From a virus: 22,035 nucleotides of DNA. The stretch is from the UHGV virus genome UHGV-0200595. One strand, given 5' to 3'. Positions 60-531 of this stretch are shown in pieces (the first letter of the stretch is position 1; the number at the start of each line of letters is the position of its first letter). The position numbers and the translations under genes were made by a program. The notes below the pieces were generated by a model, which was not told where the DNA came from, searched no databases, and worked only from the letters and a program-made list of their open reading frames with translations.

Positions 60-93
60 ATACCCAATCACTTGATTTGAGCTGAAAAATTGA

Positions 94-113
94 TACTGTA
101 TATACATACAGTA
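94..113. promoter_or_regulatory. LexA (SOS) box TACTGTATATACATACAGTA inside a recA-like promoter context
   Basis: Near-perfect CTGT-N8-ACAG palindrome with AT-rich centre; TTGATA immediately upstream (90-95) as in the recA promoter; alternative TTGAGC-16-TATATA overlapping the box. Confidence 0.65.
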
Positions 114-318
114 TTCGGCGAGATATATAAGCGTGTAAAAACCTTTCGTTAACCAGAACAGATACTAAGTGATTAAAAAATACCCATAAATATGAACGTA
201 AATGCATCAAATTTACATACAGCGCGAATTAAATGATTACACTCGTTATATTTCCTCCCGCAACAAAAATTGCGTATAACCGTGTATTTTCATTTTCCCT
301 TAGTAGCAAGGAGGTATT

Positions 319-531
319 ATGAAAAATTTTCAGGGAACCATTAACCGCAAGTATGTGGTCATTCGTCGGGATGATATGTCGGTTGTGGCGGAAATGGATT
401 ATTTCCCGGATACCGAGAGAGCTATTTGGATACGTAGCGGAAGAACGCTGAATATTCGCCCGCTTAAGCCAGATGAGCGGGTTGTTTCTCCCACAGTTCT
501 CCGTGAAATGGTTTGCCAGTTTATTGGGTAA
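319..531 (+). CDS. Small hypothetical protein (70 aa), function unknown
   Basis: ORF with strong SD (AAGGAGG at 309-315) 3 nt upstream of ATG; lies downstream of the LexA-box promoter; no family recognised by me. Confidence 0.55.
   Translation: MKNFQGTINRKYVVIRRDDMSVVAEMDYFPDTERAIWIRSGRTLNIRPLKPDERVVSPTVLREMVCQFIG

What the first reader, a model, noticed from the sequence alone, without database searches (positions are those of the whole stretch)
60..320. recA-like SOS promoter with a near-consensus LexA box in a phage late/nin region
TACTGTATATACATACAGTA (94-113) is a near-perfect LexA operator, and the flanking TTGATA hexamer mirrors the recA promoter layout. It sits about 200 bp upstream of a strongly translated 70-aa ORF of unknown function. 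This suggests an SOS-induced transcript (antirepressor-like, DinI-like, or an sRNA/long leader) independent of Q control. The AT-rich leader could also encode a small RNA.
Basis: partly seen in the sequence, partly recalled or inferred. Interest (0 to 1): 0.5.

Follow-up and report, generated by a model that had tools for sequence, protein, structure and literature searches.

The report
SOS-controlled prophage antirepressor gene
A near-perfect LexA binding site sits on the promoter of a small gene related to the Salmonella Gifsy antirepressor GfoA, so this Citrobacter prophage most likely senses DNA damage the known Gifsy way: a well-understood mechanism, found here in a slightly different layout.

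Summary
TACTGTATATACATACAGTA is at 94-113, one mismatch from the 20-nt LexA palindrome, and no such match is expected by chance. It lies just after an intrinsic terminator and overlaps both candidate promoters.

The 70-aa ORF (319-531) has an inferable function. It is homologous to GfoA, the LexA-controlled antirepressor of Salmonella prophage Gifsy-1 (BLASTP E=2e-7; profile comparison 98% probability, E=8e-14). Its relatives also cross-match the family of Rem, the Qin antirepressor of DicA.

The ORF sits where gfoA/gftA sit, directly upstream of an irsA homologue (57% identical to Gifsy-2 STM1020). The closest sequenced relatives of this prophage carry 135-138-aa DicA/GtgR-type repressors with only an HTH domain and no peptidase domain.

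LexA boxes precede this gene family in 10 of 14 distinct upstream architectures, usually with dinI in between. The window has no dinI, only a 205-nt unstructured leader. I found no evidence for an sRNA or a DinI-like product.

Verdict: a new member, with minor architectural differences, of the known Gifsy-type SOS/antirepressor induction module. Binding, the transcript start and antirepression remain untested.

The parts
37..61 (+). Intrinsic terminator (stem 37-54 plus T-run). In the closest relatives this is the 3' end of a hok/gef toxin mRNA encoded just left of the window. It insulates the SOS promoter from upstream transcription.
   Evidence: The terminator scan is. The hok gene ends 29 nt before the position of window base 1 in L001/L002. 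The same hairpin follows hokD in E. coli K-12 Qin. Lemire 2011 notes that the Gifsy LexA boxes are all preceded by terminator-like palindromes.
72..77 (+). Candidate -35 hexamer TTGATT. With a 16-nt spacer it pairs with TACTGT (94-99), the left arm of the LexA box, as the -10.
   Evidence: Read from the sequence. CTTGA and TACTGT are invariant in the alignment of five loci from two diverged groups. The dinI-linked relatives and Gifsy-2 have TTGATA/TTGAAT 17 nt upstream of TACTGT. This is an inference, not a mapped promoter.
90..95 (+). Candidate -35 hexamer TTGATA in the recA-like layout. It overlaps the box, with a 16-nt spacer to TATTCG at 112-117.
   Evidence: In relatives the -10 position reads TATTTT, TACTTT, TGCTTT or TATCCG, so it is weak and variable.
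94..113 (.). LexA operator (SOS box) TACTGTATATACATACAGTA.
   Evidence: One mismatch to the consensus, with none expected by chance. It is the only CTGT-N8-ACAG in each of nine related loci of up to 16 kb. It is retained while the flanking leader diverges to about 70% identity.
114..318 (+). A 205-nt A+T-rich untranslated leader. It occupies the place that dinI holds in most relatives.
   Evidence: No DinI remnant, no Rfam family, folding z-score 0.37 and no + strand terminator.
308..314 (+). Shine-Dalgarno sequence AAGGAGG, 4 nt before the ATG.
   Evidence: invariant in the alignment.
319..531 (+). 70-aa GfoA/Rem-superfamily protein (phrog_1813), the predicted antirepressor.
   Evidence: phrog_1813 E=5.7e-18. 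GfoA against this protein gives BLASTP E=2e-7. GfoA against the family alignment gives hhalign 98.1%, E=8e-14. GfoA matches both phrog_340 and phrog_1813. The AF2 model has pLDDT 86, four strands and a C-terminal helix.
619..1218 (+). irsA homologue (DUF1367), the gene that follows the antirepressor in the Gifsy LexA-regulated operon.
   Evidence: PF07105 E=1e-94. 57% identical to Gifsy-2 STM1020. irsA follows gfoA in the contigs that carry gfoA.
1215..2047 (+). YbcO-like nuclease (1215-1508) and Q-like antiterminator (1505-2047). They overlap their upstream neighbours and are possibly co-transcribed from the SOS promoter.
   Evidence: Pfam and PHROG matches. The only + strand terminator-like hits between 113 and 2131 are one at 458-482 inside the 70-aa ORF, with a weak T tail, and two low-G+C ones inside the irsA-like ORF at 840-858 and 993-1010. 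The first G+C-rich one with a clean T run is at 2132-2151, after Q. Co-transcription is an inference.

Best explanation
This is the SOS input module of a lambdoid Citrobacter prophage whose lysogenic repressor cannot cleave itself.

In undamaged cells, host LexA binds the operator at 94-113. The operator overlaps the core of the only plausible rightward promoter, whichever of the two candidate -35/-10 pairs is used, so LexA blocks transcription. The terminator at 37-61 stops read-through from the upstream hok locus.

DNA damage activates RecA, and LexA cleaves itself. The promoter then fires, and a transcript with a 205-nt leader expresses the 70-aa protein. That protein is a homologue of the Gifsy-1 antirepressor GfoA and a more distant relative of Qin Rem. 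It binds the short DicA/GtgR-type prophage repressor and removes it from its operators, which induces the prophage. The transcript probably continues into the irsA-like, ybcO-like and Q-like genes.

Shown here: the operator and its conservation, the homology, the synteny, and the repressor type in the closest relatives. Inferred: LexA binding, the transcription start, protein-protein antirepression, and read-through into Q.
For: (1) The operator has one mismatch to the consensus, with none expected by chance. It is present in all nine close loci and is the only CTGT-N8-ACAG in each. It is retained while the leader diverges.

(2) I recovered GfoA from IMG/VR contigs using the published primer sequences. 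There it lies in the order LexA box, dinI, gfoA, irsA.

(3) GfoA is homologous to the window protein: BLASTP E=2e-7 and hhalign 98.1%, E=8e-14 against the family. GfoA matches phrog_340 (the Rem family) at 7.6e-21 and phrog_1813 (the window family) at 3.5e-11. Seven of 20 family members match phrog_340, the best at 4.8e-10. Rem itself matches phrog_340 at 4.4e-21.

(4) The synteny agrees. The next gene is 57% identical to Gifsy-2 STM1020, the irsA homologue. Lemire et al. describe the order terminator, LexA box, dinI, antirepressor, irsA, lying outside the immunity region.

(5) Distant homologues (31-47% identity) in Kluyvera, Atlantibacter, Klebsiella, Salmonella phage SPN3UB and Citrobacter phage Chris1 have a LexA box, then dinI, then this ORF. 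Two Kluyvera-type loci have the box and the ORF without dinI. Ten of 14 upstream-sequence clusters carry a box.

(6) The repressors of the closest relatives (L001, which encodes the identical 70-aa protein, and L005) are 138 and 135 aa. They match only HTH domains and are 45% and more identical to Gifsy-2 GtgR. L012, L015, L017 and L018 encode 129-142-aa relatives that share the C-terminal LFxQLPExE motif.

(7) Rem, an experimentally shown antirepressor of DicA, occupies the same slot after hokD in Qin.
Against: Nothing here was tested experimentally.

The -10 of the recA-like promoter is poor (TATTCG), and the consensus promoter scan found no + strand promoter at the box.

The window does not contain the immunity region, so the repressor type is known only from near-identical relatives. 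The first 19 nt of the window differ from those relatives.

Most sampled family members lack any LexA box. These are 75 loci in four upstream clusters, mostly the hok-linked E. coli/Salmonella type. SOS control is therefore not a universal property of the family.

The window protein itself does not reach phrog_340. Family profiles do not detect E. coli Rem or GftA directly.

Antirepressors that are 86% identical accompany repressors that are only 52% identical. This fits broad specificity but is not evidence of a cognate pair.
Confidence: 0.78

Rival explanations
1. The operator is real and SOS-controlled, but the 70-aa protein has a different damage-related role, such as a division inhibitor, a toxin or a RecA modulator, rather than antirepression.
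For: No function has been tested for phrog_1813. The AF2 model has no significant structural neighbour. Many family members lack LexA control. SOS-induced prophage division inhibitors are known from the general literature.
Against: There is significant homology to GfoA, for which antirepressor activity and repressor binding were shown (PMC3121763). The gene has the same position next to irsA. It co-occurs with short repressors that lack a cleavage domain. It shows no similarity to DinI.
Confidence: 0.1
2. The box is an inactive relic or a LexA-titrating site. The promoter has decayed, and the ORF is expressed only by read-through of early transcription from pR. This would resemble rem in Qin, which lacks a LexA box, or fsoA in Fels-1, which is under FsoR rather than LexA control.
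For: The -10 is weak and variable (TATTCG, TATCCG, TGCTTT). The scan called no + strand promoter. Most hok-linked homologues have no box. One lineage (L027-L031) keeps only half a box. FsoA is a published antirepressor that is not under LexA control.
Against: The 20-nt palindrome is nearly perfect and intact in all ten close loci, while the neighbouring leader has diverged to about 70% identity with indels. A terminator lies directly upstream, as in Gifsy. Both candidate -35 hexamers are conserved. Weak -10 elements are common in tightly repressed promoters (general knowledge).
Confidence: 0.08
3. The box controls a leftward promoter (TTTACA 139-134, 18-nt spacer, AATACT 115-110) that produces an antisense or non-coding RNA against the 3' end of the hok transcript. 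Alternatively, the leader itself is a small RNA.
For: The only consensus promoter match at the box is on the minus strand. hok loci are regulated by antisense RNA (general knowledge).
Against: In the L005-L009 group the spacing of those hexamers collapses to 5 nt (derived). The minus-strand ORF at 58-210 has a TTG start and no support. There is no Rfam match, no structural signal and no covariation of note. Sok-type antisense RNAs act at the 5' end of hok mRNA, not the 3' end (general knowledge).
Confidence: 0.04

Closest known systems
Gifsy-1/Gifsy-3 antirepressors GfoA/GfhA and their LexA-regulated operon (Lemire, Figueroa-Bossi and Bossi 2011, PMC3121763)
   Same: A terminator followed by a LexA box, outside the immunity region and downstream of the replication genes. 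A small ORF directly upstream of an irsA homologue. Detectable sequence homology. A short GtgR/GfoR-like repressor in the closest relatives.
   Different: There is no dinI gene between the box and the antirepressor; a 205-nt non-coding leader takes its place. The operator sits between a TTGATA -35 and the -10 as in recA, or serves as the -10 of an upstream -35, and there is no GGTATACTGT motif. A hok toxin locus lies immediately upstream. The start codon is ATG, not TTG or GTG. Identity to GfoA is only 29%.
Rem, antirepressor of DicA in the E. coli K-12 Qin prophage (Ragunathan et al. 2023, PMC10448788)
   Same: The same slot: hok terminator, then a small ORF, then nin-type genes, then Q. The two families are linked through phrog_340. 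The repressor is a short DicA-type protein.
   Different: K-12 rem has no LexA box, and its inducing signal is reported as unknown. There is no direct pairwise or profile similarity between Rem and the window protein. The gene downstream of rem is ydfU, not a DUF1367 gene.
GftA of Gifsy-2 (phrog_4847)
   Same: The same genomic slot and size (73 aa), LexA-controlled, next to irsA.
   Different: No significant similarity to the window family. GfoA links to it only weakly (E=0.039).
Tum of coliphage 186 and AntC of N15
   Same: LexA-repressed antirepressors that inactivate a non-cleavable repressor: the same regulatory logic.
   Different: Different phage types. Tum is 146 aa and is fused to a DinI-like half. 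Sequence relatedness was not tested here.
E. coli recA promoter/operator
   Same: TTGATA overlapping the first TA of the box, a 16-nt spacer, and an identical right arm CATACAGTA.
   Different: The -10 is TATTCG instead of TATAAT. The downstream gene is unrelated.

Membership tests
Gammaproteobacterial LexA operator (SOS box) | A 20-nt palindrome TACTG-(TA)5-CAGTA with an invariant CTGT-N8-ACAG core and an A+T-rich spacer | tested here: met
   19 of 20 positions match. None of 100 shuffles gave a match with up to 3 mismatches.
Gammaproteobacterial LexA operator (SOS box) | Overlaps or abuts the core promoter of the regulated gene | tested here: inconclusive
   It overlaps both candidate promoters (72-77/94-99 and 90-95/112-117). 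The consensus scan called neither of them, and no start site has been mapped.
Gammaproteobacterial LexA operator (SOS box) | Retained at orthologous positions | tested here: met
   Present in all nine close loci and in L026, and in 10 of 14 upstream architectures of the gene family.
Gammaproteobacterial LexA operator (SOS box) | Binds LexA and is derepressed by DNA damage | not testable with these tools
   Needs EMSA or ChIP, and RNA analysis after mitomycin C.
Gifsy-type LexA-controlled antirepressor module | Sequence homology of the small ORF to a characterised antirepressor (GfoA/GfhA, GftA, FsoA or Rem) | tested here: met
   GfoA: BLASTP E=2e-7, hhalign 98.1%, E=8e-14, and a shared phrog_1813/phrog_340 membership pattern. 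Not met for Rem or GftA directly.
Gifsy-type LexA-controlled antirepressor module | Located outside the immunity region, after the replication genes, preceded by a terminator and followed by an irsA homologue | tested here: met
   Terminator at 37-61. irsA homologue at 619-1218, 57% identical to STM1020. The gene order in L001/L005 places the module downstream of the immunity and replication genes.
Gifsy-type LexA-controlled antirepressor module | [quoted passage not shown] | tested here: not met
   There is no DinI-like coding potential in 1-620. dinI is present in L012, L013, L017, L018, L021, L022 and others, but absent in L015 and L092. Lemire et al. found that deleting dinI had no significant effect on induction.
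Gifsy-type LexA-controlled antirepressor module | The cognate lysogenic repressor is short (about 130-150 aa), has an HTH only, and lacks an S24 self-cleavage domain | tested here: inconclusive
   Met in the closest relatives: L001 138 aa, L005 135 aa, with only HTH_3-type Pfam matches and 45% or more identity to GtgR. Also met in L012, L015, L017 and L018. The window itself does not include the immunity region, and its source genome could not be found.
Gifsy-type LexA-controlled antirepressor module | The protein binds the repressor and releases it from its operators, and its expression alone induces the prophage | not testable with these tools
   Needs genetics and biochemistry.
DinI family | Sequence similarity to DinI (about 80 aa, C-terminal ETWESADDWFY-type motif) | tested here: not met
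   tblastn of three translated dinI-region queries (two correct DinI sequences, from L012 and Gifsy-2; the third, from L018, was read out of frame and is not informative) against window 1-620 gave only chance-level hits. There is no Pfam match.
Known small regulatory RNA or structured leader | A match to an Rfam model, or stable conserved secondary structure with a defined 3' end | tested here: not met
   No Rfam hit at E<=1. Folding z-score 0.37. Only 2 of 54 predicted pairs show compensatory change among five sequences. No terminator lies in 62-318.

The most novel reading that the evidence does not exclude
The Citrobacter hok-linked module may preserve the ancestral SOS input of the rem-type (hok-adjacent) antirepressor slot. 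The abundant E. coli/Salmonella hok-linked versions, and K-12 rem itself, would then have lost it. That would help explain why no inducing signal for Rem is known.

In addition, no strong intrinsic terminator is seen between the box and the end of Q. LexA cleavage might therefore feed transcription directly into the late-gene activator Q, giving a second route from DNA damage to lysis that does not depend on the repressor.
Probability: 0.15. Interest if true: 0.45.

Novelty: new member of a known kind. Interest (0 to 1): 0.3.

Why it matters
It assigns a testable function, GfoA-like antirepressor, to a 'hypothetical' phage protein family (phrog_1813) that is common in enterobacterial prophages.

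It predicts that this Citrobacter freundii prophage is induced through LexA rather than through repressor self-cleavage. That kind of induction is in principle reversible, and it can cross-talk with co-resident prophages.

It shows that the antirepressor slot next to irsA is a swap site. That slot holds GfoA-, GftA- and phrog_1813-type genes, with or without dinI and with or without a LexA box.

The contrast with the many box-less hok-linked relatives and with rem gives a natural comparison set for asking how such prophages sense their inducing signal.

Tried and rejected
- Megablast of 1-620 against the phage and complete E. coli genome collections found nothing. Sensitive blastn found only the terminator hairpin.
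- Pairwise BLASTP of the 70-aa protein against Rem and GftA gave no alignment.
- Profile-profile comparisons with shallow Rem and GftA alignments were not significant.
- A family HMM did not score Rem or GftA above 20,000 shuffled decoys. The link was only established after I recovered GfoA itself.
- Pfam and NCBIfam gave no family for the 70-aa protein.
- Foldseek against PDB and BFVD gave no significant neighbour. The best hits were VapB-like, at E>0.06.
- The AFDB library was unavailable.
- The Rem model was too poor to compare folds (pLDDT 49).
- I looked for a dinI remnant in the leader and found none.
- An Rfam scan of 1-700 gave nothing. Folding and alifold of the leader gave no signal.
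- I rejected the minus-strand promoter called by the scan, because its spacing is not conserved.
- I searched the viral and metagenome collections for the window's divergent first 30 nt, to recover its own left flank. There was no match.

Full report
**The observation**

The window begins in the nin-like region of a lambdoid prophage. The 20-mer TACTGTATATACATACAGTA lies at 94-113. It differs from the palindromic LexA consensus at one position. No dinucleotide-preserving shuffle of the window gave a match with up to three mismatches. The CTGT-N8-ACAG core occurs only once more in 22 kb, there with a G-rich spacer, against 0.27 expected.

TTGATA at 90-95 overlaps the box exactly as in the E. 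coli recA promoter, which I read from MG1655: TTGATActgtatgagcatacagTATAAT. The window has TTGATActgtatatacatacagTATTCG, so the recA analogy fails at the -10 hexamer.

A second arrangement is equally possible and is fully conserved among relatives: TTGATT (72-77), 16 nt, then TACTGT (94-99). It resembles what is seen in Gifsy-2 and in the dinI-linked relatives. Either way the operator covers core promoter elements.

An intrinsic terminator (37-61) lies directly upstream. The ORF at 319-531 has a strong Shine-Dalgarno sequence.

**Where the window comes from, and its neighbourhood**

The 70-aa protein is identical to a Citrobacter freundii protein. In the genomes and contigs that encode it or its 86%-identical variant, the rightward gene order is:

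- recE ... dicB, N-like gene, a 135-138-aa repressor on the opposite strand;
- ydaS/ydaT or replication genes;
- a hok/gef toxin gene;
- this ORF, then DUF1367, YbcO, a Q-like gene, and the lysis and head genes.

The hok gene ends 29 nt before the position of window base 1. The terminator at 37-61 is therefore the 3' end of the hok mRNA, and the same hairpin follows hokD in K-12 Qin. The first 19 nt of the window differ from these relatives. I could not recover the window's own left flank.

**Conservation of the operator**

All nine close loci carry the box, and it is the only CTGT-N8-ACAG in each, over up to 16 kb that includes the immunity region. Between the two subgroups the leader has diverged to roughly 70% identity with several indels. 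The box, both candidate -35 hexamers and the ribosome-binding site stay intact.

**What the 70-aa protein is**

Pfam and NCBIfam give nothing. PHROGs places the protein in phrog_1813, function unknown. An exhaustive phmmer search found a small family with the motif YxVIRxDD...FP..R.....R.G.

The literature gave the lead. Lemire et al. (PMC3121763) showed that the Gifsy prophages are induced by small antirepressors rather than by repressor cleavage. These are encoded in a LexA-repressed operon that lies outside the immunity region, is preceded by a terminator-like palindrome, and reads dinI, antirepressor, irsA. Ragunathan et al. (PMC10448788) showed that Rem, the gene next to hokD in Qin, is an antirepressor of DicA whose inducing signal is unknown.

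The window's DUF1367 protein is 57% identical to Gifsy-2 STM1020, the irsA homologue. The intergenic DNA before it is also recognisably similar. The 70-aa ORF therefore sits exactly in the gftA/gfoA slot.

Direct comparisons with Rem and GftA were negative. Seven of 20 family members nevertheless match phrog_340, Rem's family, the best at E=4.8e-10.

I then recovered GfoA itself. The annealing part of the paper's forward primer finds 58 IMG/VR contigs. In the contig I read in full (L105), an 82-codon TTG-initiated ORF lies between a LexA-box-controlled dinI and irsA, and the reverse primer matches its 3' end; the same ORF, or a near-identical variant, was recovered from 56 of the 58 contigs.

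- GfoA aligns with the window protein at BLASTP E=2e-7, 29% identity over 62 residues.
- GfoA aligns with the family profile at 98.1% probability, E=8e-14, over 78 columns.
- GfoA matches phrog_340 at 7.6e-21, phrog_1813 at 3.5e-11 and the GftA family at 0.039.

The 70-aa protein is thus a member of the GfoA/Rem antirepressor superfamily. Its AlphaFold model is confident (pLDDT 86): four beta-strands and a C-terminal helix. It has no significant solved or viral structural neighbour.

**Comparative support for SOS control and for the repressor partner**

More distant homologues (31-47% identity) occur in Kluyvera, Atlantibacter, Klebsiella, Salmonella phage SPN3UB and Citrobacter phage Chris1. 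They show a terminator, TTGATA, a LexA box, dinI, then a GTG- or ATG-initiated homologue. SPN3UB uses the same promoter and dinI as Gifsy-2 but carries this family in place of gftA. Two Kluyvera-type loci have the box and the homologue with no dinI, as the window does.

I clustered 96 loci by their upstream sequence. Ten of 14 architectures carry a LexA box.

The exceptions matter. The largest clusters, hok-linked prophages of the E. coli/Salmonella type, have no box. One lineage keeps only the right half of the box. This matches box-less rem in K-12. SOS control is therefore frequent in the family but not universal.

The repressors in L001 and L005 are 138 and 135 aa, match only HTH domains, and align with GtgR and DicA along their whole length. 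The alignment includes a conserved C-terminal LFNQLPETEKLRL segment. L012, L015, L017 and L018 encode 129-142-aa relatives with the same motif.

**The leader**

The 205 nt between the box and the ATG contain no DinI remnant, no Rfam family, no excess folding energy (z = 0.37), no meaningful covariation and no terminator. I see no support for a small RNA. The leader appears to be what occupies the dinI position in this lineage.

The only + strand terminator-like hits between the box and the end of Q are a weak one inside the 70-aa ORF (458-482) and two low-G+C ones inside the irsA-like ORF. The first G+C-rich one with a clean T run is at 2132-2151, after Q. The SOS transcript may therefore extend through the irsA-like, ybcO-like and Q-like genes. 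This is inference only.

**Mechanism and rivals**

The best explanation (confidence about 0.78) is this. LexA represses a promoter at about 72-117. DNA damage relieves the repression, the GfoA-like protein is made, and it inactivates a DicA/GtgR-type repressor, which induces the prophage.

The rivals are:

- an SOS-induced protein with another role (0.10);
- a decayed promoter with expression only by early read-through, as for rem or fsoA (0.08);
- a leftward or non-coding RNA (0.04).

**Novelty**

The mechanism is known, and the gene family is related to characterised antirepressors. Three things are new here: the assignment of phrog_1813 to that superfamily, a Citrobacter example, and an architecture without dinI that abuts a hok locus and has a recA-like operator placement. 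I rate it a new member of a known kind, of modest interest.

Noticed in passing
window 1-61; L001 7300-7740: The window starts inside the 3' end of a hok/gef-type toxin transcript. In the closest relatives a 50-aa Hok gene ends 29 nt before the position of window base 1. The first 19 nt of the window differ from all relatives, so the source genome may carry a different hok variant or a rearrangement there.
   Followed up: partly
L032-L089, L014, L016, L019, L020, L093-L104 (about 200-230 nt before the homologue): About 70 E. coli/Salmonella-type prophage loci have the order hok, terminator, A+T-rich leader, homologue, irsA, with no LexA box at all, although they also carry short DicA-like repressors. 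How these are induced is unclear, as for K-12 rem.
   Followed up: partly
L027-L031, about 200-215 nt upstream of the homologue: These loci keep only ATATACATACAG, the right half of the window's LexA box. The left half is replaced by unrelated sequence that carries a leftward ORF. This looks like a recombination or insertion breakpoint inside the operator.
   Followed up: no
window 193-237: A 14-codon ORF, MNVNASNLHTARIK, lies in the leader with no Shine-Dalgarno sequence. A similar N-terminus (MNINAANLH) appears fused in frame to the homologue in database protein P0006. In the L005 group the aligned ATG opens a 39-codon frame that ends at a TGA overlapping the GTG start.
   Followed up: partly
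window 121-134 with 244-257, and 297-311: There is conserved long-range complementarity in the leader (GAGATATATAAGCG with CGTTATATTTCCTC; one compensatory change between groups). A small hairpin, CCUU...AAGG, would occlude part of the Shine-Dalgarno sequence. Neither has statistical support.
   Followed up: partly
window 2132-2151: A strong intrinsic terminator (AACCCGCCATCGTGCGGGTT followed by a T run) lies 85 nt after the Q-like gene. This is the expected place of a pR'/tR' late-promoter unit on which Q would act.
   Followed up: no
window 2154-2660: An N6/N4 DNA methyltransferase ORF with a TTG start is 168 aa here and 180 aa in L001. It lies immediately after the late terminator, so it may be truncated or may use a different start.
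   Followed up: no
window 2723-3154 (-) and about 3179-3361 (-): A HicB-like antitoxin and a HicA toxin pair is inserted between the methylase and the holin genes. It is present in the window and in L002, but absent at that position in L001.
   Followed up: no
window 5056-6775: A ParB_N-domain protein is followed by a TAGT (tRNA-guanine transglycosylase-like) protein just before the terminase genes, according to the precomputed Pfam hits on the identical L002 genes. This pairing is reminiscent of phage 7-deazaguanine DNA-modification genes.
   Followed up: no
database proteins P0010 (1125 aa) and P0018 (969 aa): Two very long proteins match residues 21-51 of the 70-aa protein in 14 and 4 separate stretches, so the motif around SVVAEMDYFPD occurs as a tandem repeat in unrelated large proteins.
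   Followed up: no
L006 11417-12213: One related prophage carries an Enterotoxin_a/Scabin-like ADP-ribosyltransferase gene and an LT-IIB-like B-subunit gene directly after its lysis genes.
   Followed up: no
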